Positions 13,471-33,899 of a DNA stretch of 64,000 nt are shown here, one piece after another. The translations under genes and the position numbers were made by a program. The notes beneath the pieces were generated by a model. It worked only from the letters and a program-made list of their open reading frames with translations, was not told where the DNA came from and ran no database searches. Origin of the DNA: Prorocentrum cordatum (Eukaryota). The stretch covers positions 1 through 64,000 of the forward strand of contig CAUYUJ010000011.1 of assembly GCA_963575745.1 (NCBI GenBank). The letters are read 5' to 3'. Positions within the stretch are counted from its first letter, which is position 1. Every line of letters begins with the position of its first letter.

Positions 13471-13505
<35 letters not shown>

Positions 13506-13506
13506 C

Positions 13507-13551
<45 letters not shown>

Positions 13552-13713: not shown

Positions 13714-13785
<72 letters not shown>

Positions 13786-14073
13786 CAGTAGTAGTAGTAG
13801 TAGTAGTAGTTGCTGTTGGTGTTGGTGTTGCTGGTGTTGTTGCTGTTGCTGTTGGTTTCGGTGTTGTTGTTGGTGTTGTTTGATCGTGTTGTGGTTATGA
13901 TTATGGTTGTTGGTGTTGATGTTGGTGTTGATGTTGTTGTTGGTGGTGTTGGTGTCGTTTTTGTAACAACAACATGTTGCTGCGGTTGTTGTTGATGTTG
14001 TTGATGCTACTGATGTTGTTGTTGCTGTTTTTGCTGTTGTTGTTGTTGCTGCTGTTGTTGTTGATGTTGCTGT
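12345..14073. repeat. (GTA)n microsatellite core (~12615-13810) flanked on both sides by degenerate (GTT/GCT)n
   Basis: Direct inspection. Confidence 0.97.
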
Positions 14074-16460
14074 TGAGTACTCATTTCTAAATAATAATTA
14101 TTGCTGATCTCCGGAAACGGTTCCGCGCGCTCTCGCCTCGACGCCGGCTACATTTTCGCTGAAAACGAAGCTCCCACTCGAGCGTTGGCTTGACCCTAAA
14201 TGTGGGCCCTTGGAGGCCCAGCTGCGCCAAGAACGGCTCCCGCTCGATACTTCCTCACAATTTACCCCGAGACACCCTGGCCAGAGAGGCCCCCGAACTC
14301 AGGAACGGCGCTCTCGCTCGAGATTTCCTCGCAATTCCATTAAGTTGGCGGAAGCCCAGCCACGACGACAAGGGCTCCTGCTCACTACTTCCTCACGACT
14401 TACTCCGAGAGCCTCTGGCCAAGAAGGCCCCCGAACTCAGGAACTGCGCTCTCGCTCGAGACTTTCCCGTAATTCGAGCAAGTTGGTGTAGGCCCAGACA
14501 CGGCGACAAGGGTTTCCGTTCAATATTTCTCCATTGGTATTTCGAGAGCCCTTGGCCAGAGAGGCCCCCGAACTCAGGCACGGCGCTCTCGCTCGAGACT
14601 TCTTCGCACTGCAGTCAGTGGCCGACAAGGAAGAGACTCCACCCGAAAGGGGGTGCAATCGAAGACGAAGTGGGCGGTTATCGAAGGTTGGGGTATACGG
14701 AATGCAAGACACGCGTGCCAATAATAGCTAACCGTCTTAAAATGATTGTTGTTGTTGAGTGTTAGTTACTAAACAATTATCATTGTTGGAACCCTTACAG
14801 GCACCCTGGCTCTCTCGCCAACATGCCGGCTACATTTTCATTGAAAATGAGGCTCACGCTCGAGCGGTTTGGGCGACCGCCAAAACCGGCCCCCCAACAA
14901 CAACAACGCTCCCGCTCGAGACGTCCTCCTTTTTTACTCAGGGCTGGTGTTCTTGCTCGCCGCCGAAAGCCGCCGTCCTGACAAAACCAGCGCTCCCGCT
15001 CGATACGTCCTCCCGTTTTATATTGGACTGGCGCGCTAATCTTTCTCTCACCGGCGCCGCCCCCAGCAAAAACAACGCTACCGCTCGAGGATTCCTCTCT
15101 TTTTTACTCAAGGCGGTGCTCCTGCTCGCCGCCGAAAACCGGCCCCCGCCCGAAACTTCCTTCCGTTTTACGCTGGACTGGCGCCCTACTCATTTTTGAA
15201 TTGGCGCCGCTCCCAGCAAGAACAACGCTCCCGCTCGAGGCTTCCTCCCCTTCTTACTCAAGGCGGTGCTCCTCCTCGCCGCCGAAAACCGCCGCCCCGA
15301 CAAAATGAGCGTTCCCTCCCGAGACTTCCTTCCGTTTTACGCTGGACTGGCGCCCTACTCATTTTTGAATTGGCGCCGCTCCCAACAAGAACAACGCTCC
15401 CGCTCGAGATTTCCTTTCTTTTCTTTGTTTTTCCTCGAGACGGTGCTGTGTTCCTCGCAACCGACAGCCCCCGTCCCGACAAAACCACGGCTCCCGCTCG
15501 ATGCTTCCTCCTTTCTTACTCAAGGCGGTGTTCCTCCTCGCCGCCGAAAGCCGCCGTCCCAACAAAACCAGCGCTCGAGACTTCGTTATGTTTTACGCTG
15601 GACTAGCGCCCTACTCTCTTCAGCATTGGCGCCGCTCCCAGCAACAAAAGCAGCCCTGCTCGAGACTTCCTCCCTTTCTATTCATGGCCAGGTCCTTGCC
15701 TCACCGCCGACAGCCCCCATCCCCACCAAGGCAATCCTGTCGTTCGATACTTCCTTGTGCTTTACCCTTCACTGGGGTTCCACTGGCGGTCTCGCATCGG
15801 CGCAGCGGCGCGGGCATGTGTTTTCGAGGCGGGATATGTTGAAATTCCTCGGAGGAGATTTTTGCCAGACGTAATTGGGCGGGAGATCTGGGAATGGGAA
15901 TAACGGACCCCGCTATTGAGCAAGAATCCTCCATGATGTGGATGGTTATCATGATGCTCGCATGCTTCGTGTGGAAACATCGCGCATGAGGGTAATATGA
16001 TTGAGCTCTCACTTCTGAAGAATAATTGTTGTTGATCCCCCCCACCGGTGCATACTGTTTTTCTCAATCGAAATGTGCCCCTCGACGCTCGCATCCTGTT
16101 TTTTGTCAGGGAAAGTCTTGATACTCAAACTGAGCCCCTGGCCCCCAGGTTACAACAACAACGGCTCCCGCCCGAGACTTCCTCACAATTTAGCCAGGAC
16201 CCCCGCTCCCGCCCGAGAGTTCCTCGCATTTTATTCAGGAATCGTGCTCTCGCTTGGGACTTCCTTACAATTTATTCAGGAATGGCTCTCCCAGCACTCT
16301 GGAGTCGCGCTCTCGCTGGAGACTTGCTTGCAATTTACTGACGAATAGCGCCCTTGCGTTCGAATTTCTTGCAATTTACTCAAGCGCCGCGCTCCCAACA
16401 CCCAGGCACCCAGGAGTCGCGTTCACGCCTAGGACTCCCTCCCAGATTACCTAGGAATCG
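14070..16460 (+). repeat. Degenerate higher-order repeat rich in GCTC(C/T)CGCTCGAGA(C/T)TTC
   Basis: ~150-bp subunits (GGCCAGAGAGGCCCCCGAACTCAGG-like x3). Larger units restart near 14070, 14755 and 16000. Confidence 0.75.
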
Positions 16461-16464
16461 GGAT

Positions 16465-17120
16465 CTCGCTGCCCTTCGTGGCCCCGTTGCAGCCCTTCGT
16501 GGCCCCCTCGCTTTGTTTCGTGGCCCCGTTGCAGCCCTTGGTGGCCCCTTCGCTATGTTTCGTGGCCCCATTGCAGCCCCTCGTGGCCTCCTCGCTGCCC
16601 TTCGTGGCCCTGTTGCAGCCCTTCGTGGCCCCCTCGCTTTGTTTCTTGGACCCGTTGCAGCCCTTCGTGGCCCCGTTGCTGCCCTTCGTCGCCCCGTTGC
16701 TGCCCTTCGTGGCCCCGTTGCAGCCCTTCGCGGCCCCCTCGCTCCCAGTCGTGGCCCCGTTGCAGCCCTTCGTGGCCCCCTCGCTGCCCTTCGTGGCCCC
16801 TTATATGCATGCCCTTCGTGGCCCCCGCTCGTTCGCGCCCGTGGTGGCCCCATATGCATGCCCTTCGTGGCCCCGTTGCTGCCCTCAGTGGCCCCGTCCT
16901 TGCCCTCCGCGGCCCAACATACGCATGCCATTCGTGGCCCCCGCTCGTTCGCGCCCGTTGTGGCCTCATGTGCATGCCCTTCGTGGCCCCGCTGTCGCCG
17001 TTTGAGGCCCCCTCACTGTCCTACGTGGCCCACTTGCTGCCCTCAGTGGCCCCATCGTTGCCTTCTGTGGCCCCGCACTCTCTGCCCTTCGTGGCCCCCG
17101 CTCGTTCGCGCTCTTCGTGG
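16465..17120 (+). repeat. 21-bp minisatellite (GCCCTTCGTGGCCCCGTTGCA-like)
   Basis: Direct inspection. Confidence 0.92.
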
Positions 17121-17139
17121 CCGGGCGCCCGCGAGTCGT

Positions 17140-17777
17140 CACTTTGCGAGCGGCAGCCGTGGAACGCGCTCGGCGAAGGAGGGAGGCGGGCCCTGCAGGA
17201 AACGGGTCCTGGGCCCTGGGGTTATGTCGGGCCTGTCCCCCTACAAGGGGATTTTCGACGGAAAATAAAAGATACCCCAAAAATAATCTAAAAAGAATCC
17301 AAGAATAGTCTGTGGACTATGTTTGGAATATTTTTTGACAATTTTGGGGCATTTTCGGGGTATTTCTTAGTTTTCGTCGAAAATCCCCCTGTTGGGGGAC
17401 ATGCCCGACATAACCCTGGGGCCTCCCCCTTCGGACCCGCTCCTCCTCCCGAGCCGCTGCCTGCCCCAGAGCCCGTGGAGGGCCCCGGGAGGCCAGCCCC
17501 GGCGCAGCACCTCGGGACCCGTGTCCCTCAGGACCCCGCCTCTGGACGAAGGAACAACGGCGTAAAGATACACTTTGCGAGCGGCAGCCGTGGAACGCGC
17601 TCGGCGAAGGAGGGAGGCGGGCCCTGCAGGAAACGGGCCCTGGGCCCTGGGGGCCTCCCCCCCGGGGCCAGCTCCTCCTCCCGAGCCGCTGGCTGCCCCG
17701 GAAGCCCGCGGAGGGCCCCGGGGAGGCCAGCACCGGCGAGGAACCTCGGGACCCGTGTCCCTCAGGACCCCGCCTCC
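17140..17777 (+). repeat. Tandem duplication (~17140-17543 and ~17571-17777); the first copy carries the MITE insertion
   Basis: ACTTTGCGAGCGGCAGCCGTGGAACGCG...GTGTCCCTCAGGACCCCGCCTC in both copies. Confidence 0.9.
17221..17414. mobile_element. 194-bp palindromic MITE with target-site duplication
   Basis: ~62-bp inverted arms GTTATGTCGGGCCTGTCCCCC.../...GGGGGACATGCCCGACATAAC. CCTGGG flanks both sides (17215-17220, 17415-17420). The element is absent from the sister repeat at ~17645. Confidence 0.88.
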
Positions 17778-19902: not shown

Positions 19903-20150
19903 GGTAGGGGGGGAAGGGGGGGGGTTCATCGGGTCCACCCTTTCTCCCCCCCCCCCCGGGACTCCCAAACCGCCCTAAAACGGGCCAAGAGGGGCCCAGG
20001 AGGCCACCAAGACGGTCCAGGAGGCGCCCGAAAACGCCCAAGAGCGCTCCTGGACGCCCAAGATGGCCTGAAGACGGCCCAAGAGGCCTCCAAGACGCCT
20101 CAAGGAGATTCCAAGAGGACCCCCAAGAGGGCCCCAAGAGGGTACAAAAA
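19903..20150 (+). repeat. ~245-bp dispersed repeat (second copy 43971-44216), CCAAGA-rich
   Basis: Near-identical GGTAGGGGGGGAAGG...GAGGGTACAAAAA at both sites. Confidence 0.92.
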
Positions 20151-21637
20151 CCTGACCAGACAAGAACGGGAAGCGCCATTTGTGCTCGTAGGGGTGTTTG
20201 TCGTTGTGGAAGCACGAGGACGAGGTGGAGAATGGCGTTCAAAGCCATGGACGTCATCGTTCATCCCAGACGGCTGGGGATGCCGAAAGCAGCCTTCGGA
20301 GGCAGAAAAGTTAGGAGAACATCCCCAGGCCGTGGCACGCAAATGAAGACGACGACGATGGACGACGGACGAGTGGCGACCACGACGGCGGCGGCGGCTG
20401 CAGCGGCGGCTGTGGAGGAGGAGGATAAAAAGGAGGATGAGGAGGGGGAGAGGATGAGGCAGACAAGGGAGGACGAAGGGGTAAAGGCGACGCCTTTGGG
20501 GTTCCTTGCGAACCGCCTTCGGGGTGTTCGGGGCGTGCGGGCGCAGCTTTGGGGTTCCGTGGGGGTTCGTGCAGAGCAGTAGTGTCGCTCTAGGCCACGC
20601 TGGGAGCTGTGTGGGGCAGTCTATGGGGTTCTAGGCGCTTTCTGTATCGCTGGCGCGTCCTTAGGGTGGTTTTGGGGGCTTTCCAGGCGCCTCTTGGAGG
20701 CCTCCTGGGGTGCTTTTGGGCCCATGTTCGTTCAGGTTCTTACCCAGCACCGAATTTTTGAGGATGGCTGGAGCAAAACGGCCTTTTGGTTTGCCGCGTT
20801 GGTCTGACGTGCTGGTCGAACCAGCATGCTCTCCGACCAGCATGCTCTCGGCGCGTGATGGACCTGGTGGGCCGTTTGGGGCTCCTCGGGCCCTCTTGTG
20901 GTCTTTAGGGCGCCTTTTGAAAGGCCTGTGGGTTATTTTTTTGGAGCTTCTCAGGAATATCTTTGGCCCCTGAGATTGTCCCGGCGCTCCTGGAGAGTAT
21001 ATGCGGGCATTCTCTTGGGCCATCTTGGCGTTCTCTGGGGCCGTCTTGAGGTTGTCGTGGGTGATATGGGAGTTTCCTCTGGCATTGTTGGTGCTCTGTG
21101 GGCGCCTCTCAGGCGCTCTTCTTCGCAAAGGTGTGGACGGTTGATTCGTGTACTTGTCGTCGCTGACGTCATCTTATTTGCTGACGCATTTCCTTTCGTA
21201 GTGGCTTCCGTTTTCTTCATTATTGTCTTCGTCCCCGTGCTCGTTTTTCTCGTCGTCGTTTTTTCGTTGTCGATTGCAGGATTGACGGGAATAAGTCATT
21301 CGCTATGCGCACAAATCGTGGCGTCGGAACGCTGTACGGCAGCAACAGCATGCTCGTAGGAACGCCTCCGCAGGGAATGCAAGTGCAGTGGCAGGTGGCT
21401 TTGCGATCAGTTCGCCAAGCGATTACATTCTGCGTATTCGTGAAGTAGAAATGGTGGTGCGTTTGCGGCTGCCCAGAAGGACGTCTGTGCCTCCGTGGAT
21501 GGGTGCGCGTGGGCGCTGGCACGATGTGAAATACGTAGTTCAGCACCTCTGAAATGAAAAGGCTCGTCCCACCACAGGGAAATCCAGAAAGGGTAGTCGT
21601 CGCGCTGGCTACACGTGTTGTATAAGCAAGTTGACGC

Positions 21638-21807
21638 CTGGTTCGGGGGTTCCGAAACGTGACGAGGGCCAAGGCAGTTTGGGCTTCTCGCGCAGCAGCA
21701 GGTGAGCCTCGAACCGTCGGGCGCAAGAGCCCGAGGGTTCAAGACGGGGCTGCCCGGAGGGAGTAGCCATGACGTCCCTGGTCCAGTTCGATTTGGGAAC
21801 CCCAGGC
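21638..21807 (-). other. Predicted intron (GC-AG, phase 0, 170 nt) with terminal inverted repeats
   Basis: GCACAG|GCCTGG...AACCAG|GCGTCA joins NRLLAQ to ASTCLYN..FWISLWWDEPFHF, supplying the missing OTU His strand. Stop at 21407. Confidence 0.75.
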
Positions 21808-24800
21808 CTGTGCCAGTAATCTGTTCCGGAACAAGAAGATGCCGATGTCGAGGGCTTCGCTGAGGCTGTTGACGTCTGTTTGTGTGCCCCAGTGCATATT
21901 TCCAGGCTGGGCCATGCAAGCTGCAATGCTTTGTCGAAGGTGCTGCAGTCGCGCCGTGCCGTCTGGTATGCTGATCAGGCTTTCGTCGCGATCGCGCCCT
22001 CCTCGTCGCGCAGCTGTCACGGCCACCCGGGCAACGGCACTCCCGTCGGATCTTTCCTCGAACGCGAGCACGCTCTCCACGTGCGCGAGGCAGTCCAGAG
22101 AGCACTGGCGAAGAACATCGAGTGGAACCCACAGGTCTTCATGCATCCCCGCGCGGTGCTGCATACAAGCGGACACTACGAAGTCAAGCACTTGCTCCGG
22201 TGTCCAGCGAAAGTATATGCGAGCGGACAGTTGTCGGAGTGCTCGCATGACGGCATCCTTGCCCTGGAGGAAAACTCGCGATGATAGAGTCTTCAATATG
22301 TGGCGCGCAGGTGGGCCACCAGCGACGACCATGCGAGCTAGCACTCCAGCGATGCTGTAGAAGAGGCAGTCGCCGCCGCCGCCGAACTCGACGCTGTGCA
22401 CGGACATCGTGGAACAACTGGAAGATCCAACTTTTGCAACGCGGGTGCAAAGTGCGTCTGACACGGCGTGGGTGGCGCCAAGTGCCCACTGCAGTCGGGC
22501 GCGCGAGTTGGACGCAGGTGATAGCAGGAAGTAGGGGCACCGCTCGTTGTCGACGCAGCACTCCGGCGAGCCGCATTCGCCGCACGGGCGGACGGGTGCA
22601 GACGACGGAACCATCGACGGCGAGGTTGCGCTCGGAGACGGCGTTCGTGTCGTCGGTGGTGCCGCGTCGAAGAGAGCGTCGTCAATCGGTGCTGGGTGCC
22701 TGGACTGCGCCTGATGGCCAGTAGGTGCATCGACTGCCATTCCTGGGACAGAATCCTGCGCTATGGGCGGCGGCGGCACCTGCGCCGCGGTACTCTCCGT
22801 TAGCCGCGGCTTCTTCAATGGGGGCAGCGCAGACAATGTCTTGGCTTGCTCCGCCGCGCTGCCGCCGGCGTCCCTCGTGTCTCCTGCCCGCGGCAGCAAC
22901 GTTGGCGGCGGCGTCTTCCCGCGCGTTCGACGAAGCACACTGCGGCCCTCCTCGGAGCGCGAGGGCGGCGGCAAAGCTGTCGCGCGCCGCTGGTGTCTTG
23001 CAGGGCGGTTAGCTCGGAATGAGGCTACCCGGGATGCCTGGCGCGACGCGCCATCGCTCGCGAGGACGTGGTCCATCAGGTCGTCGGGCAAGGCATCTCC
23101 AGTCATGTCCCGCAAAGTGCGGATGAGGTCATCGAGCGACGACGTCTCCATGTCGGCCAGCCTTGTAATCTCGTCTAGCAGGAACTTCGGTGGCTTTCGG
23201 GAAAGTTCTCGCCTGGTTGCCGGGCGTAGGATGAAAAGGCTCTCCACGGAGATTGCGCGCGAGAGCATCACGTAGCACGCCAGCCAATGCGTATCTGCGT
23301 CCATGGAAGGCGGCTTCTTCATGTCAGCCACCACGGCTACGCATGTGCCCCCCTGAGCTCCGTACACAATAATCGTATCTGCTGGCAATAAACGGTAAGT
23401 AGTGCGGCGGACAGAGAAGTGCTCCTCCTCCCACGCCGCGCGCAAATGCCCGCACGTCGGTCTCATTTGAAACAAGCCGCGCCGGTCCGTGCAGGTTGGG
23501 AGGTCCGCAGCCAAGTCGGCCGCAGGAAGTTCCCAGTCGCCGCCGTCAGCCTGCAGCCAGAGGGAAACGGGCATGAACTGTACGTGCACGACGTTCTCGT
23601 CCACTGGGCCCGACTGGAACGGCTCCCCGCTGGCGAAGACAATGCGGCGGAGCGTGCAGACGCAGCCCTTCATGGGGCCCAGCCGCACGCAGTCTTTGGA
23701 GCACATAGTCAGGCGCATTCCGATGTACAGTGGCAAAAGACTCGGCAAGTCCTGCGTATCTTTCGGGCTAACCCTCTGCAGGAGGTCTCTATGGACCTGT
23801 TCTGTCATTTTGTGAGCGTCGGCGGGGTCCACTGGCTCGTCGCGGGCTTGGACCACGTAGAGGCGGCGGCCCGTCCGCAGTGCTTGCTGTTTAGCGTGCT
23901 GCATTGATCGGTAGACGCGAATCTTGTGCCTGTGGACGATGTATGTCCAGGGGTGCGTGGAGAAGAGCGACGCGGGATCGCGCGGGCGGGTGTCCTCGGA
24001 AGATAGTATGCGACTGGTGTACAAGGCCCACATCGCGTCCGAGATGTTGCCAGCACGCATCTCCGCCAGCAGCTGGCTGAGTGGGCCAGGGGCGCGGGCG
24101 TTCACTTCCAGCGTCACCACCTTCCGGACGCGGCGCCACAGCTGCAGTCCTTGCACCGTCTCCACGTGCTTAGACCTCTTCTTGTCCCCGTCCTGTTCCT
24201 GGTCGTATTCGCCCTTCTCATTCAAAACGTCAACCTCGTCCAGGTCCGTGGCGAGGCTCCTGTTGTCGCCCGTCGGGTCGGCTGGTGGGAGCTGCATGAA
24301 GTCCCCGGAGAACGTCATGCCCAAGCCGCCCCAAGCCTGGGTGGAGCTCTTGGCCGCCTTCAATCGAGCCTCTGCCTGGAAGAGCTGGGCTGCTGCGACC
24401 ATGGACACTTCGTCAATGAAGCACGCGAGGGCGCCTTCCCAGCGGCTCCGGTGGCTCTCCAAGACAGTGCGCGTGAGGCGACCTTTCTTACTGGACACGG
24501 TCACGCTGCCAAACGGTAGTTTGCACAGTGCGTGCAGTGTGTCCCCTTTCAGAAGCCTTGCCGCCGAGTTCGATGGCGCGCATTTCTGCTCTGTGTCTGG
24601 GCCGTTGAAGTAGCAGATGACTGCTTCGACGACTCTCAGAACCGCCGTCTTCCCAGTGCCTCCGGGGCCCATGAGTGCGAGCTGAAACCCGTCTGCCAAA
24701 GACGGTCGCCCTGTGACAGTCGGCCCAGAGGGCTCGTCGAACCCCCACGCGCGGTTCATGACGTCCTGTAGCCAAGCAGCGTTCCAAAGCAGCGCGCGCG

Positions 24801-26903
24801 CGCCTGTTTGACGTTGATCTCGGGCATGTCGACCACGTTCAGTACGCCCGCCCGCAAGAGGTGGACGCATGCGTCGAGCACTGCAGTTCGCGTACGCGGA
24901 GGTACAGGCGGGAACGCCGAGCTGCGGCCGTCTGCCATGGTTTTCTGGAGCCGACACTGCAGGCCATCGGGCGTCTCCTGAGTGGACTTCTGCGGCCTCG
25001 TAGTCGTCTCGGCCTTCCAGGCGTCAATCATCTTGAAGAAGTCCGCTTGCCGGTCCGCAGCCGCCAGAGATGCGGCTGGGCGCAGTCGCACGGCATCCTC
25101 GAGTACTGGTGCACTAGAGGCCACGTCCGCCGCTCGCAGCCGGGCGGAATTCTCCCGCATGAACTCAACGATGTATTTCGCTGCTGCTGCGGTGCTTCTC
25201 TGCCATGCTGCCGGAGCAATCACGTCATCCATCTCCACGCCCTCAGGGAAGATGCCGCAGAGGAGGCTTGCCGGGTCGGGTGCTCGGTGTCTTGGGGCTG
25301 GCGCGGGGTGATCCTTGTCTTCGTCGTACGGGGGAATGTCGGGCGGGTGGATATCGTCGTCGCTGTCGTCGTCGGACTCCAGGAGAGTGTCCGGGTCGTT
25401 CGCGGCTTTGGCAGCCTCATCACGGGCGGCGTTCCACGGTGGGAGAAATGGCATCTCTACGTTCGACGGCACGGCTTCGCTGATGGTTTGTCTCCTGGAG
25501 GAAGCGAAGTCGTAGTTGCGAATGCTGTCCATTATTCTGTGCGCCCACCATTCTGGAGTCAGAGGGGGCGTCTCCGCAGTGCACTTTCGAGCCACCTCTC
25601 GGGTCGACACTTCCCATGCGCGGAAGTCGTGCACGACGGCTGTCTGCAATGCGTTCTCTCCATGCGGCCGCGGTGTAGACGTGATGCGCGACGCGAAATC
25701 TGACAGGGACCTGAAGGGCCTGAACAGAACCATCACGTTCAACGCATAGAGGAACCACTCGTCCAGGAGGTCGTCACTGGCAGGCCGACCAGGCAATTTG
25801 CCGTAGAGGATGGGCACCTTCCACGGCTTTGTCACACGCAATGAGATGTAGTACGCGTGCTTGTAAAGTACTTCCCCGTTGGGCTCTGCGTCCGTCGGAG
25901 CTCCTCGGAGCGGCGCTCCGTCGTAAGTAGCGCTGGTCACTGGCGCGGCCGTGTACTGCCGGCGGCCGCCGCCCCTGAGCCACTGGAGAGATTCTGGCGG
26001 GGGCTTCTTGCCAACGGGCATCTTGGCGTCGTAGCCGCGAAGAAGAAGTAGAGGGGAAAGTGTTCCAGCTCTTGCGGCCTGCGCACGTAGTCCAACTCGC
26101 CGATGTGGAGATTTGCTGGGGTCCACTTCGTAGCATACGGTCGCGGTTGGCTGTGGTCTGTCTGGAGAGGTTCACCGCGAGCTGTCTGGGACATCGTGGC
26201 GCGAATGAAAGCGAGGAGCTCCCCGAAAAAGACCGGGGCAAACGCATGGCTGCTGTGCGCGATGGGCTCTCCTAAAAGGTAACTGATCATCTCGGGGAAC
26301 CCTTTGTGCATCCGCTTGTTGGTCGCGGCCACCAGCGTGTGCAACAATTTGCGTGCCTTCTCCTGGTCATCGACCATGTCCTTCGCAGCTGCCAGCTGTG
26401 CCGCACGTTCTTTCCTCTCGAGCGACGCGGCCAACGTCATTTTCAGGCCGTCTGCGCGCGGCTGCGACTTCGCCGAGTACGCCGAGGCGTAATACTCGTG
26501 GTCCCCCATTGCTTCGGCCATCGCTGCTTTCACCTGGGCAACGCGGCTTTCATTCGGGAGGTCGGCGTCGTTCGCGGGGAGCTCGCAGAACGGCAGCAGG
26601 ACCGCCAAGTCGTGGTTGCACTGCGGGCCCAGCATGATGGCGGGGTTCAGCCGGAAGTGGAACGGATGCGTTGTTTCCAGCGCTGGAAGGCCCACGTGTG
26701 GCGGGTAACGCAGAATCGGCAGCTCGCCAGTGCCATCCCATCGAGCGTGTAATTCCAAGCCATGCTGACGTTTGGCAATCTCTTTCCCTGTCTTTGCGTC
26801 GGTCTGTCTAGCCCAATGCCAATAGTGCATGCGGCAGAACCCCTTCTTGCCGAGTCGCCCTTTGTGACAAACTGCTGGCCGACAGACGTGATTGCCAATT
26901 TTC

Positions 26904-27150
26904 CTGTCGATCGTCTGGTCAGAGGGTGCGCGTTCATGGAGGCCGCAGCTAGTTCAGACAAGGTCCACGAAAACACTCGTGTTTTGGTTGGAAGGGGGTA
27001 TTCTGTTGTCGCCGCACCCCCAGAATTGCCAAGAAACGTTTCGGGGGATGGGCAGTGGTCGAAACACGGAAAACGTCGAGGGGGGGAATCCATTGAGCTG
27101 CTGTTGCTACTGCCTCCAAGAAACGGAACCCTACGAGCAGGCGGCAGGTC
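26904..27150 (-). other. Predicted intron (GA-AG, phase 2, 247 nt)
   Basis: ACCAG|GACC...GACAG|GAAA gives EILSRTRKIGNHVCRPAVCHKG, restoring the Rep His/Cys motif in frame. Confidence 0.7.
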
Positions 27151-27277
27151 CTGGTCCGCGACAAGATTTCCTGCACGGCCTTGATAGACCACTCCCCGCT
27201 GTCGACGCTGGGGTCGGAGGAGAAGGACGTCGGGAAGAACGCGAACTCGGCGACGTTGCCGGCGCACGCAGCGGGTC

Positions 27278-27617
27278 CTTTCGGATCGGCGGAAAGGGAG
27301 GCCAGCTTACGTCCAGTGAAAAGGGTGTAGTGCAGTACACGCATACATGTATGTATACATATTTGTGTAATGGTATGTACGAGTACATATATGTAAATGT
27401 ATATGCATATGGCTGTTGGTGGTAAATGCACTGCAACCAGAAAGCATTGCGTTGCATTGCAAGCAAGGGATGTCACGCACAGATCCAGGTAGACATTTGC
27501 GCCCCGAAATGCTTTGCGCGGTGCAATTCGCTTGCGCCCTCGGGGACTGTTGCACTAAACGTATTGCACCACCCCGTGTAATCTTTTAGCTGGGTACCCC
27601 TTTCCATCGACTTCTGC
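27278..27617 (-). other. Predicted intron (GC-AG, phase 1, 340 nt) with subterminal inverted repeats
   Basis: GAAG|GCAG...AAAG|GACCC joins RGLE to GPAACAGNVAEF in frame. Interior is AT-rich. IR at 27286-27307 / 27588-27610. Confidence 0.72.
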
Positions 27618-30600
27618 CTTCGAGGCCCCGCCCATGCCACTGGGCGGCGTTGCTGGCGGCCGTGCGAACGCCCCCGATCTTCTCGCGCTGCGATTTCGTC
27701 AACGGCAGCAACGGCAACTGTTGAAGGGCGGCATGTCCGAGCGGGTCCTTCGCGTAGTGAGCGAACGCCTCCGTGCTGCGGAACGTTATAGAAGCGATGT
27801 AATGCCAGGCGCGTCGGAACGTGTTCTGCAGGTGGTCGCCTTGGAAGAGGTCGTCAGGGTGAGAGAATCCAACGAGCTGAATGAGCATGTGGATGTGCAG
27901 CGCTTTGCGCATCTGTCCTTCCGCAACGCCGAGGTGCGCCCGAACGTGCCCGACGATGCCGGGCAAACTCTTTGCGGCGATCCCGTCGCAGTTAAGCTCG
28001 TCGGGCGCACCAGTGCAGTTGAACAATGCGCGCATGACGAGCCGCACGGTCCAGTGGAAGACGCGCGTGGCAATGAGCGGGTCCTTCGCCACAGCTCGGT
28101 GAAGGCGTCGCGGGTCCTCCTGGTTGAAGTCGGTCATCCACTGGGTTGCCTTGTCGTCGGTCATGTCCAGGGAGAACTTGCGGGACGCGGTCGCGTCGTC
28201 CTGGGCCAACAGCACAGTGAGGGGGCCCCGAATGTCGCGCGGGTTCAGGGCGAAGAAGAGCGATGCGCATCCAGACCATATGCGCAGAGTCCGGAATCGC
28301 CAGATGAATCCTTCTCGCTCCTCGGCGGATCCGCGGACACGTCGGAGTGCGAGGGGCATCCGGTGAGCGGCGTTGCGGACGACGGGATCGAGCCCTTGCT
28401 GTCGAAGCAGATCTCGGAGATTGGCCGCGCCCCCAGCGGCCGCGGCGGAAGAGACGAGGCCTTCAGCAGTGAGCTGCGCGAGCGCAGTGGTTTGGCCCGG
28501 TGTCATGCCAGCGATGCCGTCGCTGGCCGTGGACTTCACGTGGGCCTCGACGCTGGCCATCTGGTCGCGCCGCAGGAAAGTGTTGAACAGCGTGGCCACG
28601 AACTCGACGTCGCGGCGCCAGCAAACAGTCTCGGCTCGCGTGAGCAACGTCTTCGCCCACGTTGCTGCGGGCAGGCGAGCGGGGCGCTGGGGGCACGTTT
28701 CCTGACAGTCTCCTCGCGGGAAGAGTCGGAGGAAGCATGCCGCCCAGAAGTTCTCGGCCCGCAAGGACAGGAACTGGTCTCCGTGGGCGATCTGCACCGC
28801 AGGCGCGTCGACCTTCTCTTGCGCCGCCCACTCGTCCAACTCCCTCCGGACAGAGTCGCGGGACATCCGTTGCACTGCCTCGACTGCTTTGGCGAGGGCT
28901 TCATTGCGCCGCATCTTCATCTGCGCGCGAGCGGATGAGTCGTGGCCCTCCGACAACTTATGGATCTCATCATGGAGGCGCGATGCAACGTCGAAGTTCT
29001 CCACGACCCGCGTCCGCAAGCGGAGTGCTGGCACGTCGTCCATGCCCCCGTTCACAACGGCGGCGTTACCATCGTCAGCCGTTTCAGTCGGGTCTGTCTC
29101 GCGGGCGCCACTGTCGGTGCAGTCAGCTGGGCCTCCCGACGCCACCGAAGCTTTTGCTGCAGAAGCCGCAGTTGCCGCGGAGAGTACTTCCCGCGGAACG
29201 CCGGAGGAGCTTCCAATGCTGCTGGCGTAGGCACTGAGTAGGGCCTCCAGGGCGGCGTGCAAGGTGCCCGAGCGCCAGATCTCATGGTGCCTGGTGGCGA
29301 ACATGAACATCCAATTGTTGAGGGACAGCCACCGGAACGCCGCGCGTAAGCGGAGAACGGGGGCCTGGAGGTCCGGGTGTCGTTGTAGATCGTCAAACGT
29401 CCCACCCGCGAACTGGATCACCATGGTCTGTGCAAGGGCCGCAGGCAGCATGCCTATGGCAGTCAGTGCAGTGTCGGGGCTCTGCGGGTAAGCCACCACG
29501 TTCTTCTGGTGGTACGTGGGCGCCTCCGAAGTGGCCGTAGGAGCGTCGGGCGCCTTGCTGAGGAACGCGCGTTTGATGCTGACATACACTTTGGCGAGGT
29601 TGATGACCTTGCACTCAGCGTACGTGAGGTCCACGAATTCACGGGGGTCGGCGCCTCTCCACATCCCGTTCGCCAGAGCAGCTAGAGGCACTCGAACTCG
29701 CGGGCGGCGATCGTCACGGGGGCCGATCAGTTCCCGCAGCGCGGACGCGCAATGCTTGCACATGTTCGCCGCGGCGCCGGAGGCGGCGCCCTTGCCGTCG
29801 GCGCTGGACGTCGAAATGCCCGGGCGGCACAGCAGCCAACGCCTTTCGGGGTGGCCGGGCGCAGCAGTGGAGTCCGCCACGAGGTCGGCGCGTACAGCCG
29901 CCGCCAAGCGCTGAACCCTCTCATGCCAGCTTCGAGCAGCATCGGCTGTAGTGAAGCCCAAAGAACTTTCCTCTCCTTTAAGCAGAGCGGCGACGTTGAG
30001 CTCTGCTTCTCGCAGCCACTCACTCTCGCAGAAGATCAGTTCCATGTACCGGTCGACGCTGAAGACGTTGTCCAGCCGCGCGTGCCAAGCGTCCTTGTGC
30101 GCAGTCCAGACGTCGGTGGGCCACTGCGGCCAGTCGGGGCACGCGTCGTCTGAGGGGTCCGGCAGGTACGTCGTTTGGAGTTTGCATCGGCGCTTGTCCC
30201 AGGCGCAGACTGCGCAAGGTGCCATGGTAAAGTTGGCATCGGTGAGCTCCGCTTTGAACGCAGCCAGGCGTGCCCTCACAATTTGAGGACTGATGGGCGT
30301 AGGCCACGCCGTGAGGGATCGTTGAGGTATCACATTCCGGTAGGAGTCCAGTACGTCACACGCGGGGTCGAGCACGTCGCGGTGCATCTCGGCGAGGTGG
30401 GCGGGCAGGTCCTCGGCCCGCACGTGGACGAGACACAAGCGGCAGCATTCGGGGTGTAGGTAATCGGGCGTGGCCGAGCACGCTGGCAACGCATCCTGCG
30501 AGCGGTTCTTCTGCAGAAGCAGTCGAAGAGCTGGTTTTGTGCCGGTCCACGATTGGGCGGGCGGCAGCGAGTCCATGTACGATTCACTTTCGACTTGCAC

Positions 30601-31763
30601 CAGCTTTGCAAGCATGGCGGGCGACTGTCCCGCGAAGCACGTCTGGCAACAGTGCATGTAAGTCCGGGCGTGCCTTGCGGGCCTCTTGCCGCAGATAATG
30701 CAGAGGGTCCCTGAAGCGGTCCAACACGCGTCGCACAAGGCCTGCGAATCGAGGAAGTGCTTGGAACAGAGGGTGCACAAACGGACAGAACGAGGGCAAT
30801 TTGTGGTGGCGCACGGTCCGTGAGAAACAACAAATTTCTCACCGGTGATGGGATCTGCTTCCCGGTAACAGTAGCCGCACACAAGTTCAACAAAATGGCG
30901 GCGTCACAGGCCGGACTGTCTCTCGTCGTCGCTGGAATGAGCGCGGCACCACAGAGCGAGAGTAGTGCACAGGGAACAGCTCGGCAGCGGCGTGCTTGGT
31001 GGAGGCAGTTGCCGACAAATATCACACGCCCGAATGGCTGCACATGCCTTGCACGACCGTGCGGCGTAGAAGTCTCTGTGCGCGGGTGTGGTAGTGCAAT
31101 ATCTGCACAGGCGGCCATCAGCAATCCAGCAATTCCCGCAGGTCTCATTGGGGCTGGACGCCGCGCAAGGTGAGCACAATGGGAAAGTGGAGCCGCATGT
31201 GGACGTAGCGCATGGCGCTCTGGTCATCGACGCACTCGGCAGCGTTGCGCGGCACATGGTGCAAGAGGTCTGAGTCGAGGCGCACGCATGGCACCAACCT
31301 GAAGCGCGCTCGTCGGCAGTCGTGTGCGTGGGGCAGCCCATGGCACATGAAAAGGCGACGGCGTGGGTTTTTTTTGGGGGGCGTCACACATGCGGAGCAT
31401 CTCAGAGGGTGGTCCTCCGAATTGTACCACGTGCACCCGTCCACATGGCAGGCCCTTTGTCGCTCACATGGCTTGCACATGATCTTGCGCACGAGCTCCC
31501 GTGACTCTCCGCAAAAATTGCATGTAGACTTTCGAGCCTGCTGCTTCTGGGCGTATTTTTGGGGGAACAACTTGCGGTAGCACACTTTGCAGTACCCGTC
31601 GTACCCCGTCTGTGCGAATGGTGTGTTCTTTTTGGCGCCGTGGGCTCCTCGGCAGAGCATGCGGCCCTGGGACATGGCGGCCGAAGCGCAGAGTGTCAGA
31701 GTACAGCCCTGGCGACGCGCGGCGCCTTCACGAGAGGCGCCTCCGCAATAGAGGGGCGACACG

Positions 31764-31792
31764 TGACCAATGGTTTGAGCCGAATTTGTACG
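31764..31792 (-). other. Probable tandem relict dinoflagellate spliced leaders upstream of RepHel
   Basis: Minus strand CGTACAAATTCGGCTCAAA (15/20 to CGTAGCCATTTTGGCTCAAG) followed directly by CCATTGGTCA, ~90 nt before the ATG. Confidence 0.55.
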
Positions 31793-33899
31793 TGATGGGG
31801 CATGTTGCGAAAGTCGTGCGTTCGTTCGGGGGGGGGGTCGGCATGTTTCTTCCGCTTGACGCCGCCACTGCGTTGGCCTTGGAAGGGGTACGAAACTGGG
31901 AAATGCGAGAGGTATCAAGATGAGTCCAAGAGACTCAAGATGCTTCCGACACGGCCGAAAAGAGGGCGAACAACACAGGGCCTTAGTCCAGGATTACAAA
32001 GTCAGTCCTTCCGCTCTCCCGCACTCCCTCGCACTCCCGTGCTCTTGCGCAGCCCTGGAGTTGTGAGGATGCCGTAGGCGAAACTTGCCAGATCACCTCT
32101 CCCGCGGAATCTCTGGGCCCAGAGATGCGAGAATGTCTCAGAAGGAACAGGTGGACGATATCAGTGCAGGGCAGCTCTGGTCCCAGAGGTGCGAGGTGGT
32201 TGCAAGCGACACTCACGATCGATCTGTCCATGAGCCTCATTGTGGATCTCACTGTCGATCTCCCTATCGAGGTCACCCCCTCCCCCCCTTCTCGTCCTCC
32301 TCCTTCCCTCGATGGGGTCGAAGGTCGGTCCTCGAGTTTCGAGGATGAGGGGTGGGGGCTCGGCCGCGACTGGCCGCGGGCCGGCGGCTCGCAGGAAGGG
32401 GCAGTCCGAGGGGGCGGCCTTGTAAGAAGGCAGGGGGGCTTTCAGAAGGGGTTTCTTCGAGGTCGGCACGCGCCTCTCAGGAGGCGGAGGAGGACGAGGA
32501 GGAGGAGGACGAGGACGGGGAGGAGGAGGGAGAGGATAAGGAGGAGGAGGGGAGGAGGAGGAGGAGGGGGAGGAGAATGAGGGGGAGGGCGGAAGAGGAT
32601 GAAGAGGAGGGAGGAGGAGGAGGAGGAAGAGGAGGACGAAGGGCGGTGTCCCTTCACGGGGGGGTGAAGAAACGTGTCTCTGCGGCCCTCCAGGGGCCCA
32701 CGCCTTTGTGACAGAACGCTCTTGGAAGTGCAGATCTGCGCACGATTCACACAATCGGCTCGCAGAGGCCTCCACGCGAAGGAACGCGTGTTGAACGCGC
32801 TCACGCCGCGGAAAATGAATCAATACGTATGACCGGGCGTCATCAAGTCGAATCGATCATCATGGACGTTGTGCAAATTCGGATCACCAAAGAGGGCTGA
32901 CTGCCACGCGCGCACACGGAAGCGCGGGAACCGTTGCCAGGACCCCCGCGAGCGGGGAAGGGTCGTTAGCCAGGCAGCACAGCCACAAGCCATCTCAAAA
33001 CGGGGGCTGCTGGACAACGCCAACCATGTACGGCAGGCTCCCGTCGCGACGACGTCGGCGCTGGCTTCTGACACCGCGTGGATCGGTCGACCTTCAACGA
33101 TCGGGACTTCCCGATGAGCCGGATCGTTCAACATATGACGATCCCGGACCATGGGCGGCGTTCCACCTTGAACGCCCGCGGCGCGGAGGAGGAGGGAGGG
33201 AGGGAGGGAGGGCCGAGACTTCCCCAGCAATGCAGGGCAATGGCGAACAGAAAACATTTCGATATAGGTTTTAGATAGGTTCAAAAGTAGGTTCGGGAGA
33301 TAGGTTCGCAAGCATAGTAGGTTCCAGGAAGAAGGTGCAACGCGCGGGGAAAACGTGTCATCGGGCAGATAGCCTCCCGTTACTGGGTTTGCCAAAGCGC
33401 GTCGGCGCAAATGCCGCGGGCAGCTAAGTTGGCGAAGCGAATTCGCCAAACTAGCCCTGGCGAGTGCACCCGGGGACGTTCCCTGGCCGCGGTAACCTCG
33501 CCAAGAAGGTTTGCAATGAAAAACGGCGTCAGGGCTGCATTTCAGGCAGGGGCCGCGACACTTTTCGCGCGATGCACTCTCGGGCACTAAACATAAAAAA
33601 TTAACGAGAGCGGCTGCGGAGAAGACCTCCGAAAACACGACCCTCCAGAAAAGCAGTCACGACGATGGGCGACCCAAAAATCAATTGGGGCAGCCCCAGC
33701 AACTGGCACGGCGAACAACGCAACTCAAGGAATCCCGGACAAGCCGGGCCGCCACCAACAATCACCCCGTACCAATACCGTGCCCCGGCGGGGTTCGGAC
33801 ACGCCATGGCTCCTCCTCATTATCGCGGCCGCCCCGCCCAAGGTCATTCTGCCCTCCCCAAAGCCACTCGTTATCAATCACATCATGCTTCCCATCATC

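What the first reader, a model, noticed from the sequence alone, without database searches (positions are those of the whole stretch)
21407..31675. Six broken ORFs plus two small exons assemble into one ~3100-aa Helitron RepHel with a C-terminal OTU-like protease
Seen: HUH (LHIH), Y2 (YYASAYSAK) and the PIF1 motif series occur in order on the minus strand, followed by a Cys cluster and an OTU-like GGGDCLFYSI...HWG...FHF. The OTU His appears only after removing a predicted intron. Known: Helitrons/Helentrons encode Rep-PIF1 fusions, and some animal ones carry an OTU domain, to my recollection usually upstream of Rep. Inference: this is a dinoflagellate rolling-circle lineage with an unusual layout (long Cys-rich N-terminus, OTU after the helicase, no APE endonuclease).
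Basis: partly seen in the sequence, partly recalled or inferred. Interest (0 to 1): 0.8.

Follow-up and report, generated by a model that had tools for sequence, protein, structure and literature searches.

The report
Dinoflagellate Helitron transposase with C-terminal OTU
This is a slightly broken copy of a very large rolling-circle (Helitron-like) transposase gene from a dinoflagellate-type genome that carries, fused to its end, a ubiquitin-removing protease domain too divergent for standard domain searches to see.

Summary
Minus strand 31675-21407 encodes one 3169-codon gene. Its order is: Cys-rich repeats, DUF6570, Rep (LHIH, YYASAY), PIF1 helicase, a Pro/Ala/Ser linker with a Cys knuckle, then a C-terminal domain.

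Three interruptions behave as dinoflagellate-type introns with G|GC or G|GA donors and AG|G acceptors. Four are defects: three frameshifts and one TGA in place of a Cys codon. Sister copies in public DNA runs lack all four.

The C-terminal domain gets no Pfam hit. It belongs to a family of 179 representatives. A 45-50% identical member models at pLDDT 90. Its 50 best listed VIA-align matches are all OTU deubiquitinases, Z up to 10.4. Cys is kept in 88 of 89 and His in 78 of 79 family members.

The Rep-helicase-OTU order recurs in a Prorocentrum protein and in a distant 2228-aa protein. A sister lineage carries a UCH/USP domain at the same position, and another protein has the OTU at its N-terminus.

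Verdict: an HLE2-type Helitron-like element, a new variant of a known kind. Termini, expression and protease activity are untested.

The parts
31370..31675 (-). First coding piece, starting at Met 31675: Cys-rich N-terminus with CxxC pairs.
   Evidence: Homology to P0153 begins here. There is a weak FYVE_2 hit, E 0.001 and 19.7 bits, below the cut-off of 27.2. The start could lie further upstream, because the frame stays open to 31993 and sister contigs stay alike to about 31770.
31368..31368 (-). Frameshift 1: one extra base inside an A8 run.
   Evidence: tblastn changes frame between 31388 and 31344. A sister contig in X1 leaves out 1 base here (table 4).
30634..31344 (-). Two tandem Cys-rich modules of about 100 aa each (31344-31042 and 30960-30634).
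   Evidence: Both align to the single module at P0153 residues 209-315, at 32% and 35% identity. The two modules match each other at 35% over 51 aa, pairwise E 1e-7. No Pfam family was found at E<=10.
30904..30906 (-). In-frame TGA that replaces a conserved Cys codon.
   Evidence: The ORFs on either side share one frame. Relatives have Cys at this column. Four sister contigs (X1 three, X2 one) read G instead of T at 30904, which gives TGC (table 3). Codon read.
29305..29694 (-). DUF6570 domain.
   Evidence: Pfam PF20209, 49.6 bits, E 6.9e-13, at residues 404-533 of ORF 27586-30903.
27880..28428 (-). Rep nuclease domain (Helitron_like_N), with the HUH motif LHIH at 27900-27889.
   Evidence: Pfam PF14214, 46.6 bits, E 5.9e-12. 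Motif coordinates.
27278..27617 (-). Intron 1, 340 nt, G|GC...AG|G, 48% G+C, with an AT-rich simple repeat.
   Evidence: Relatives run straight across this point. Boundaries and composition. A DNA contig of X1 covers 27212-27580 (table 8).
27151..27277 (-). Small exon of 127 nt.
   Evidence: Aligns to P0153 residues 1468-1515 and P0154 residues 693-734. Junctions.
26904..27150 (-). Intron 2, 247 nt, G|GA...AG|G.
26468..26494 (-). Two-tyrosine Rep motif YYASAYSAK.
   Evidence: Translation; coordinates. The exon 26903-26036 aligns to P0153-P0159 at 38-69% identity.
26035..26036 (-). Frameshift 2: one base missing between these two positions.
   Evidence: tblastn changes frame between 26033 and 25991. 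Sister contigs in X1 and X2 have an extra T here (table 4).
24792..24793 (-). Frameshift 3: two extra bases in a (GC)n run.
   Evidence: P0001 aligns across this point with a frame change and no gap. Contigs of X1, X2 and X3 all leave out 2 bases (table 4). Sequence context.
23137..24798 (-). PIF1-type helicase, with Walker A at 24669-24646, FIDEVSM at 24420-24400 and GDFMQLPP at 24306-24283.
   Evidence: Pfam PF05970, 47.1 bits, E 2.9e-12. Extent taken from the P0182 alignment. Motif coordinates.
22408..22986 (-). Pro/Ala/Ser-rich linker of about 193 aa, ending in the Cys knuckle CGECGSPECCVDNERCPYF (22584-22528).
   Evidence: Composition and coordinates. The knuckle is also seen in P0001 and P0002 and in L001, L003 and L008.
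21808..22407 (-). OTU-fold domain, first part: Cys motif at 22383-22351 and HWGTQTDV at 21894-21871.
   Evidence: The family HMM matches the joined protein at residues 2894-3165, E 2.3e-89. Fold evidence comes from relative P0005.
21638..21807 (-). Intron 3, 170 nt, G|GC...AG|G.
   Evidence: An X1 DNA contig spans 21301-22326, so the intron is present in genomic copies (table 8).
21407..21637 (-). Last exon: the OTU His strand (EPFHFRG, 21565-21545), the C-terminal NRLAN, and stop TGA at 21409-21407.
   Evidence: Aligns to the C-termini of P0001, P0002, P0181 and P0182. Coordinates.

Best explanation
The locus is one copy of a multi-copy Helitron-like rolling-circle transposon of the HLE2 group. 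It carries DUF6570 and has no AP endonuclease, so it is Helitron2-like. It sits in a Prorocentrum-like dinoflagellate genome.

Its single gene has about 3169 codons and three spliceosomal introns. It encodes a transposase that most likely works as other RepHel proteins do. This part is inferred from family knowledge:
- The Cys-rich, probably zinc-binding N-terminus and DUF6570 help bind DNA.
- The HUH/two-tyrosine Rep domain nicks the element's end and becomes covalently joined to it.
- The PIF1 helicase unwinds 5'->3' to peel off a single strand, which is circularised and reinserted.

Fused in frame behind the helicase, after a disordered linker and a Cys knuckle, is a divergent OTU-fold cysteine protease with an intact Cys/His pair. 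I read it as a deubiquitinase that travels with the transposase. It would remove ubiquitin (or a ubiquitin-like modifier) from the transposase itself or from chromatin and repair factors at the transposition site, protecting the process from ubiquitin-dependent degradation or signalling. This role is inferred and not shown.

This particular copy cannot make the full protein as it is assembled. It has three frameshifts and a Cys->TGA change that sister copies lack.
For: Domains and order:
- Pfam finds DUF6570, Helitron_like_N and PIF1, all above their gathering scores.
- The motifs lie in the expected order.
- Helicase, linker and the OTU N-part share one uninterrupted 1094-codon ORF.

Gene model:
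- Relatives align collinearly across all pieces.
- Intron boundaries are G|GC or G|GA ... AG|G, and removing them restores the frame and the spacing.

Defects private to this copy:
- At 31368, 30904, 26035 and 24792, every sister contig covering the site reads an open frame (tables 3-4).

Multi-copy:
- In run X1, 85 contigs lay on the stretch at mixed identity: 15 at >=99%, 35 at 95-99%, 29 at 90-95% and 6 below 90%.

OTU:
- The family has 179 representatives at E<=1e-3.
- 4 of 51 members scanned touch Pfam OTU at E<=0.01, and 2 of them exceed the gathering score.
- The AlphaFold model of P0005 has pLDDT 90.1 and pTM 0.87.
- Foldseek ranks 1-21 are all OTU domains, best E 1.8e-4.
- All 50 listed VIA-align entries are OTU-group deubiquitinases, Z 10.4-7.6. 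An example is rice OTUB-like 6k9n: 175 residues aligned at 3.5 A.
- Among family members that cover each column, Cys is kept in 88 of 89, His in 78 of 79, and the Asp before Cys in 88 of 88. The window has all three.

The fusion is conserved:
- P0001 (named Prorocentrum cordatum) has PIF1 plus OTU at residues 988-1224 of 1236.
- P0182 has Rep-PIF1-OTU, with OTU at 1946-2222 of 2228, and aligns as one collinear match to the window protein.

A deubiquitinase role for Helitron-borne domains has precedent. Helentron VTD domains cleave ubiquitin in vitro (PMC9741609, passages read).
Against: - The window's own C-terminal pieces get no Pfam family even at E<=10.
- Sequence searches of the PDB give only weak LotA matches. 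Alone, E is 0.7. As a profile, E is 0.025-0.05, and Cullin-3 ranks above LotA.
- The fold evidence rests on a 45-50% identical relative, not on the window's own split domain.
- No acidic third catalytic residue could be assigned. The position two residues after His is R, Q or A.
- No RNA data could be had, so splicing and expression are inferred.
- Element ends, target site and hairpins were not found, so mobility of this copy is not shown.
- HLE2 assignment rests on DUF6570 as a marker, as stated in PMC11417382, and not on a tree with reference elements.
- The Rep profile found no solved structure at E<=1.
- None of the 27 metagenomic relatives carries this OTU family, so the domain is not universal in the clade.
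Confidence: 0.8

Rival explanations
1. The C-terminal OTU domain acts mainly in cis, as a processing protease. It would cut the 3169-aa precursor, for example in the disordered linker, as OTU/PLP-type proteases of some RNA viruses do. Deubiquitination would not be its main role. The two roles do not exclude each other.
For: The protein is very long, with a 193-aa Pro/Ala/Ser-rich linker in front of the domain. PMC4067079 (passage read) names cleavage of the Rep/Helicase/Endonuclease subunits as one possible role of Helentron OTU proteases.
Against: All structural neighbours are deubiquitinases. A sister lineage fills the same position with a UCH/USP domain, a fold known for ubiquitin C-terminal hydrolysis. 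This points to ubiquitin as the shared substrate. I did not look for a conserved cleavage motif.
Confidence: 0.12
2. The copy is intact in the cell. The three frameshifts, and perhaps the TGA, are assembly or sequencing errors, so this is an active autonomous element.
For: Two of the three frameshifts lie in simple repeats, an A8 run and a (GC)n run, where long-read assemblies and polymerases both slip. No contig at >=99% identity was shown to cover any break, so the window's own state is not independently confirmed (tables 4 and 8).
Against: The TGA is a substitution and not an indel. Frameshift 2 is not in a homopolymer. Copies of this family differ by 1-12%, so private defects are expected in a decaying transposon.
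Confidence: 0.2
3. The OTU region is a separate captured host gene lying downstream of RepHel, and is not part of the transposase.
For: PMC11417382 (passage read) says that OTU and UCH in the elements it surveyed are encoded in ORFs other than RepHel. Many family members are short proteins of 200-500 aa, though most come from contigs of 1-6 kb and may be fragments.
Against: In the window, helicase, linker and OTU N-part share one 1094-codon ORF with no stop. The same continuity holds in P0001 and P0182.
Confidence: 0.05
4. The locus is a domesticated host gene or an integrated viral gene, and not a transposon.
For: The nearest named clusters to the OTU domain in the ESM Atlas are giant-virus (Nucleocytoviricota) OTU proteins, scores 0.92 and 0.91. 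This is a lead only. The spliceosomal introns show long residence in the nucleus.
Against: Several diverged copies occur in one organism's run. This copy carries private defects. The domains are the standard HLE2 set. Three scans of viral contigs found no relative.
Confidence: 0.03

Closest known systems
HLE2 (Helitron2/Helentron group) Helitron-like elements, as defined in HELIANO (PMC11417382; passages and a supplement search read)
   Same: Both have Rep (Helitron_like_N) followed by a PIF1 helicase in one protein. DUF6570 lies upstream of Rep in the same ORF, which that paper gives as the marker of HLE2. Accessory ubiquitin-system domains (OTU, UCH, Herpes_teg_N) recur in HLE2.
   Different: That paper places OTU upstream of RepHel, and it places OTU and UCH in ORFs other than RepHel. 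Here the OTU is in frame at the extreme C-terminus. The domain is invisible to Pfam PF02338, the model that survey used. Neither dinoflagellates nor Symbiodinium or Prorocentrum occur in its text or in the supplement text held.
Helentrons of animals, with OTU ORFs and VTD (herpes-tegument-like) deubiquitinase domains (PMC4067079, PMC9741609; passages read)
   Same: These are rolling-circle transposases that carry cysteine-protease deubiquitinase modules. VTD modules were shown to cleave ubiquitin. The authors already argue that Helitrons benefit from deubiquitination supplied by different DUB classes.
   Different: Helentrons are defined by a C-terminal AP endonuclease, which is absent here. 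Here the C-terminal place is taken by the OTU instead. The host is a protist and the gene has GC/GA-AG introns.
Sister RepHel lineage in metagenome locus L008
   Same: It is 41-47% identical over Rep and helicase and falls in the same starred 9-row clade as the window on the helicase tree (99/98 support). It has a Cys-rich stretch followed by a deubiquitinase domain at the C-terminus of the helicase ORF.
   Different: Its domain is a UCH/USP fold (Pfam PF00443, 63.5 bits, E 2.9e-17), not OTU.
Otubain-type and other OTU deubiquitinases (OTUB1/2, rice OTUB-like, yeast Otu1/Otu2, OTUD2/3, OTULIN, Legionella LotA)
   Same: They share the fold: Z 8-10.4 with 137-189 residues aligned at 3.0-5.3 A. 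The catalytic Cys sits at the start of a helix, the His at the start of a late strand, and a WG..D/E..L motif lies between them. The only sequence-level PDB matches are to LotA/Lpg2248, at both the Cys and the HWG motifs.
   Different: Sequence identity is only 6-16%. The domain has a large helical lobe of about 90 residues after the Cys helix. Asp sits directly before Cys (GDC), where I recall the usual motif as D-x-x-C. The third catalytic residue is not assigned.

Membership tests
Helitron-like elements (RepHel transposons) | HUH nuclease motif and a two-tyrosine motif in a Rep domain | tested here: met
   Helitron_like_N scores 46.6 bits against a cut-off of 28.9. LHIH lies at 27900-27889 and YYASAY within 26494-26468.
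Helitron-like elements (RepHel transposons) | PIF1-type SF1B helicase C-terminal to Rep in the same protein | tested here: met
   PIF1 scores 47.1 bits against a cut-off of 25.9. Walker A, FIDEVSM and GDFMQLPP are present. The joined protein aligns as a single collinear match to P0182 and L003.
Helitron-like elements (RepHel transposons) | Several copies in a genome | tested here: met
   In one organism's run (X1), 85 contigs cover the locus at 88-100% identity in four identity bands. Depth is not a copy number, and no whole genome was available.
Helitron-like elements (RepHel transposons) | Defined termini, subterminal hairpins and a target dinucleotide | tested here: inconclusive
   No second copy lies in the window. 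The longest inverted matches between the flanks are 10 nt, which is chance level. Two hairpin candidates, 20810-20846 and 32109-32126, are untested.
HLE2 group (Helitron2/Helentron) | DUF6570 in the RepHel ORF (the marker proposed in PMC11417382) | tested here: met
   PF20209 scores 49.6 bits against a cut-off of 24.3. It is also present in 8 of 8 close relatives, and in L001 and L003.
HLE2 group (Helitron2/Helentron) | Placement inside the HLE2 clade on a Rep/helicase tree with reference elements | not tested
   No reference Helitron, Helitron2 or Helentron sequences are reachable with these tools.
Helentron (in the strict sense) | AP endonuclease (Exo_endo_phos) fused C-terminal to the helicase | tested here: not met
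   No such hit was found in any coding piece, with thresholds of E<=0.01 or E<=10. The C-terminus is the OTU domain.
OTU deubiquitinases | OTU (papain-like) fold | tested here: met
   Tested on relative P0005, which is 45-50% identical, with a model at pLDDT 90.1. All 50 listed VIA-align entries are OTU-group, Z up to 10.4. Foldseek ranks 1-21 are OTU. The window's joined domain fits the family HMM at E 2.3e-89. The window's own sequence was not folded, because it is split by an intron.
OTU deubiquitinases | Catalytic Cys and His conserved | tested here: met
   Cys is kept in 88 of 89 and His in 78 of 79 members covering those columns. The window has both.
OTU deubiquitinases | Match to the curated sequence model (Pfam PF02338) | tested here: inconclusive
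   The window pieces give no hit at E<=10. Of 51 relatives scanned, 4 hit at E<=0.01 and 2 exceed the gathering score: P0096 at 24.1 bits and P0117 at 24.0, against a cut-off of 23.3.
OTU deubiquitinases | Third catalytic residue (Asp, Asn or Glu) orienting the His | tested here: inconclusive
   The residue two positions after His is R, Q or A. Invariant D56, D134 and D225 (P0005 numbering) are candidates. Model coordinates could not be measured.
OTU deubiquitinases | Isopeptidase activity on ubiquitin or ubiquitin-like modifiers | not testable with these tools
   This needs a biochemical assay. PMC9741609 (passage read) states that transposon OTU domains have never been tested for activity.

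The most novel reading that the evidence does not exclude
In a clade of marine-protist HLE2 transposons, the extreme C-terminus of the transposase is a dedicated deubiquitinase slot. Unrelated folds have filled it repeatedly. The window lineage and the distant P0182 carry a large-lobe OTU invisible to Pfam. L008 carries a UCH/USP domain. P0037 possibly carries both in tandem. The same OTU module moved to the N-terminus in P0181. This would imply that removing ubiquitin is a required step of rolling-circle transposition in these hosts, and not a passenger function. The OTU module may be shared with giant viruses of algae.
Probability: 0.35. Interest if true: 0.65.

Novelty: new variant of a known kind. 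Interest (0 to 1): 0.5.

Why it matters
Helitron-like elements are known to pick up ubiquitin-system domains, but nobody knows what those domains do for transposition. PMC9741609 (passage read) states that transposon OTU domains have never been assayed.

This family offers a clean case:
- The deubiquitinase is fused in frame to the transposase.
- Its catalytic pair is almost invariant across about 80-90 family members that cover those columns.
- Sister lineages hold a different deubiquitinase fold at the same position.

That makes the question "does a RepHel transposase need a deubiquitinase?" directly testable with one protein.

The case also shows a blind spot in Pfam-based surveys. They miss this OTU subfamily entirely and have not covered dinoflagellates, whose huge genomes are poorly annotated for DNA transposons.

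Tried and rejected
- **Whole genome:** none is held for this window. Copy census, termini and target sites could not be done.
- **RNA:** no RNA holder was listed. Splicing and expression remain inferred.
- **Pfam on the window's C-terminal pieces:** nothing at E<=10.
- **PDB by sequence:** only weak LotA/Lpg2248 matches. With the family profile, Cullin-3 (E 0.011) ranks above LotA (E 0.025-0.05), so the search is not decisive.
- **Rep profile against the PDB:** no match at E<=1. P0182 matched only PIF1 helicases.
- **Metagenome scan with the helicase-OTU ORF alone:** 42 pattern matches, none confirmed.
- **Viral-contig scans with the OTU alignment, P0117 and P0096:** none confirmed. The giant-virus link rests on the Atlas lead alone.
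- **Cluster look-up of 10 relatives:** no organism names were returned.
- **Termini:**
  - A self-comparison found only GGA-rich low-complexity matches and one unrelated 248-bp repeat.
  - The longest inverted matches between the flanks are 10 nt.
  - The terminator scan found 1 site against 2.3 expected.
- **C-terminal tails of L001 and L003:**
  - They carry motifs that look OTU-like to me (GDGCNCLID...NHF and NDCLIDS...IHF). This judgement is from recall.
  - The two tails are related to each other at E 3e-12.
  - Pfam finds nothing.
  - The AlphaFold model is useless, at pLDDT 32.2.
  - hhalign to the OTU family gives probability 0.2.
  - The Atlas scores only 0.80.
  - I therefore do not count these tails as OTU.
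- **P0037 as a UCH+OTU tandem:** this rests on a sub-threshold UCH hit (19.8 bits against a cut-off of 23.9) and a pairwise E of 0.02 to L008. It is a lead only.
- **Earlier findings of this scan:** none by place, words or sequence.
- **Alignment A2:** too gappy for a collection scan. It was replaced by A3.

Full report
**1. What is there**

On the minus strand between 31993 and 21407 lie six long ORFs: 31145-31993, 30904-31383, 27586-30903, 25937-26953, 24756-26171 and 21739-25023.

I scanned eight pieces against Pfam. Two had hits and six had none:
- ORF 27586-30903 carries DUF6570 (49.6 bits, E 6.9e-13) and Helitron_like_N (46.6 bits, E 5.9e-12).
- ORF 21739-25023 carries PIF1 (47.1 bits, E 2.9e-12).

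**2. Gene model**

Public relatives were found. Those with names are "unnamed protein product, partial [Prorocentrum cordatum]". P0152 is 83-92% identical over Rep. P0001 is 62% identical over the helicase and C-terminus. I laid all of them on the window with tblastn. They define seven interruptions.

Three interruptions are introns by inference:
- 27617-27278, 340 nt
- 27150-26904, 247 nt
- 21807-21638, 170 nt

Relatives run across each with no residues, or one or two, missing. The boundaries read G|GC, G|GA and G|GC at the donor and AG|G at the acceptor. Removing them restores the frame. That GC and GA donors with a G after the acceptor are typical of dinoflagellates is my own knowledge, not a tool result. 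DNA contigs of run X1 span intron 3 and part of intron 1, so genomic copies contain these introns (table 8).

Four interruptions are defects:
- one extra base at 31368, in an A8 run
- a TGA at 30906-30904, where relatives have Cys
- one missing base between 26036 and 26035
- two extra bases at 24792-24793, in a (GC)n run

I joined the pieces inside a script with X at these four places. The product is 3169 residues, from Met 31675 to stop 21409-21407, with no other stop.

**3. The defects are private to this copy**

I laid Logan contigs of three public DNA runs on 21300-32100. At each of the four defects, every covering contig differs from the window in the direction that opens the frame:
- 31368: 1 base left out (X1, 1 contig)
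- 30904: T>G, giving TGC Cys (X1 3 contigs, X2 1 contig)
- 26035: a T put in (X1 and X2)
- 24792: 2 bases left out (X1, X2 and X3, one contig each)

Those contigs are 7-11% diverged sister copies (table 8). No contig at >=99% identity was shown to cover a break. So I cannot tell real mutations from assembly errors. Two of the frameshifts sit in slippage-prone repeats.

Run X1 gave 85 contigs in four identity bands: 15 at >=99%, 35 at 95-99%, 29 at 90-95% and 6 below 90%. This is what a multi-copy, ageing transposon family looks like. No RNA run was listed.

**4. The C-terminal domain**

The window's own pieces get no Pfam family even at E<=10. Against PDB sequences, the only notable match is Legionella LotA/Lpg2248 at E 0.7. 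It aligns in two collinear stretches, one at the Cys motif and one at the HWG motif.

An exhaustive HMMER search of 1.84 billion representatives found 179 relatives at E<=1e-3, 79 at E<=1e-10 and 15 at E<=1e-30.

I scanned 51 of them with Pfam:
- Four touch PF02338 OTU at E<=0.01.
- Two of these exceed the gathering score of 23.3 bits: P0096 at 24.1 and P0117 at 24.0.
- The other 47 do not touch OTU.

An alignment of 45 members has these invariant columns (P0005 numbering): G52, G55, D56, C57, R101, D134, H219, W220 and D225.

I could not fold the window's domain, because an intron splits it. I folded P0005 instead, a 329-aa member that is 45-50% identical, using that alignment. The model has pLDDT 90.1 and pTM 0.87. 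The Cys sits at the start of helix 57-72, and the His lies just before strand 276-281.

Structure searches with that model:
- Foldseek against the PDB puts OTU domains at ranks 1-21. The best is Cezanne at E 1.8e-4, and it is the only match at E<=0.001.
- VIA-align re-scoring lists 50 entries, all OTU-group deubiquitinases. They include otubains, Otu1, Otu2, OTUD1/2/3, DUBA, OTULIN, LotA, Ceg23, Cezanne and viral OTUs. For 3von, 6k9p, 6kbe and 6ks5 the OTU label is my recollection, because their titles are generic.
- Z runs from 10.4 (rice OTUB-like 6k9n, 175 residues at 3.5 A) down to 7.6.

With a family HMM built in a script, the window's joined domain (residues 2894-3165) scores E 2.3e-89. 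Among sequences that cover each column, Cys is kept in 88 of 89, His in 78 of 79, and the Asp before Cys in 88 of 88.

I conclude that this is a divergent OTU-fold protease with an intact catalytic pair. The third catalytic residue is unassigned.

**5. Is the fusion real and conserved?**

In the window, helicase, linker and OTU N-part are one 1094-codon ORF. Other long proteins carry the domain as follows:
- P0001 has PIF1 and the OTU at 988-1224 of 1236.
- P0182 (2228 aa) has Helitron_like_N at 33-224, PIF1 at 1179-1326 and the OTU at 1946-2222. It aligns to the window protein as one collinear match at 31% identity.
- P0181 (3622 aa) has the same OTU module at 185-443, upstream of Rep (1741-1941) and PIF1 (2722-2865). 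Its helicase is only 30% identical to the window's.
- P0072 (1601 aa, no Rep or helicase hit) and P0037 also carry the domain near their C-termini.

**6. Relatives without this OTU**

A metagenome scan with a Rep alignment gave 27 loci at 35-57% identity. None of their ORFs of at least 60 aa matches the OTU family HMM at E<=10. Three loci have enough sequence beyond the helicase to judge.

- **L008:** the helicase ORF ends in a UCH/USP domain (PF00443, 63.5 bits, E 2.9e-17). To my eye it has Cys-box and His-box motifs.
- **L001 and L003:** they end in a shared tail of about 200 aa (E 3e-12 between them). Its motifs look OTU-like to me. No test supports that reading. Pfam finds nothing, the model has pLDDT 32, hhalign gives probability 0.2, and the Atlas scores 0.80.

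I built a helicase tree of 11 rows. P0181 was left out because it aligned over only 142 residues. The tree is midpoint-rooted for drawing only.
- The window and P0001 group together (95/94 support), with L001 as sister (100/99).
- L002, L003, L008 and L011/12/15 form the next clade (98/98).
- P0182 and L020 fall outside (99/98). P0182 sits on a long branch of 1.71, so its place is unsure.

The OTU-bearing proteins therefore lie on both sides of the best-supported split, with UCH-bearing and other lineages between them. This pattern needs repeated gain, loss or replacement of the C-terminal module.

**7. Classification**

DUF6570 is given as the marker of HLE2 in PMC11417382 (passages read). 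No endonuclease is present, so this is not a Helentron in the strict sense. A tree against reference elements could not be made.

Termini were not found. Two hairpin candidates outside the gene are noted. Sister contigs stay similar beyond both ends of the gene: below 21270 and up to about 31770. The element is therefore at least about 10.5 kb long.

**8. Comparison with print**

I read the following as passages, not whole papers.
- PMC11417382 states that OTU lies upstream of RepHel in both HLE1 and HLE2. It also states that OTU and UCH are in ORFs other than RepHel. A supplementary figure legend mentions an HLE2 Rep/Hel protein that contains an OTU domain.
- PMC4067079 describes Helentron OTU proteases as additional ORFs.
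- PMC9741609 shows that Helentron VTD domains are active deubiquitinases. It says transposon OTU domains are untested, and it already proposes that Helitrons benefit from deubiquitination by different DUB classes.

Three full-text searches found no description of a C-terminal in-frame OTU in a Helitron, or of Helitron protein architecture in dinoflagellates:
- Helitron / OTU / cysteine protease / Helentron
- Helitron + dinoflagellate, 34 papers, listing only
- Helitron + OTU + C-terminal + deubiquitinase, 2 papers

The library lacks most subscription journals and Repbase, and I saw no figures. The absence is therefore weak.

**9. Verdict**

It is a new variant of a known kind: an HLE2-type element of a dinoflagellate whose transposase ends in a Pfam-invisible OTU deubiquitinase-like domain. 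In sister lineages other modules occupy the same position, among them a UCH/USP deubiquitinase. This copy is broken or mis-assembled at four places. I score interest as moderate, at 0.5.

Noticed in passing
window 2812-5730 (+), with ORF 3-3122 (+) upstream: A 973-codon ORF carries reverse transcriptase (RVT_1, E 9.5e-6, 25.9 bits, below the cut-off of 29.6) and RNase H (32.1 bits, above its cut-off). It is probably a retrotransposon, so the window is rich in mobile elements.
   Followed up: no
window 19903-20150 and 43971-44216: A 248-bp direct repeat at 97.6% identity lies outside the Helitron gene. Its nature is unknown.
   Followed up: no
window 20810-20846 and 32109-32126: There is a short hairpin (9-nt arms, 15-nt loop) about 560 nt beyond the stop. 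There is also a perfect 18-nt palindrome about 435 nt upstream of the start. They could be the subterminal palindromes described for Helitron2-type elements, but this is untested.
   Followed up: partly
window 10001-14000: Composition changes sharply. G+C is 0.68 with GC skew -0.51 at 10001-12000. It then drops to 0.425 with skew +0.56 at 12001-14000.
   Followed up: no
L008:8298-12563 (+): A sister RepHel lineage carries a UCH/USP deubiquitinase domain (63.5 bits) at the C-terminus of its helicase ORF, the place held by the OTU in the window.
   Followed up: yes
L001:7065-7757 (+) and L003:9954-10556 (+): The C-terminal tails of two further relatives share a Cys knuckle (CxxCGxxCHxxNxDPxCxYY) and motifs that look like an OTU Cys box and His box. 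No tool confirmed the fold.
   Followed up: yes
P0181 (3622 aa): The same OTU module sits at residues 185-443, upstream of a different Rep-PIF1 lineage. The protein ends in lysine- and cysteine-rich repeats.
   Followed up: partly
P0072 (1601 aa; cluster of 19 members): A long protein with no Pfam family carries the OTU domain at residues 1227-1486. The module is therefore not confined to transposases.
   Followed up: no
L007:4862-7873 (+): An ORF with an endonuclease (Exo_endo_phos) and a reverse transcriptase, LINE-like, lies just upstream of the RepHel relative on that contig.
   Followed up: no
window 22397-25346, 24427-26277, 26341-26609 (joints in runs X1 and X3): Contigs join across these intervals, skipping 2948, 1849 and 267 nt. 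The shorter side of each joint is only 29-31 letters. They may be internally deleted, non-autonomous copies, or they may be artefacts (table 5).
   Followed up: no
window 16342-17265 (+): There is a MINT_RAM7 hit at 42.8 bits, far below its cut-off of 108. It is probably a low-complexity artefact.
   Followed up: no
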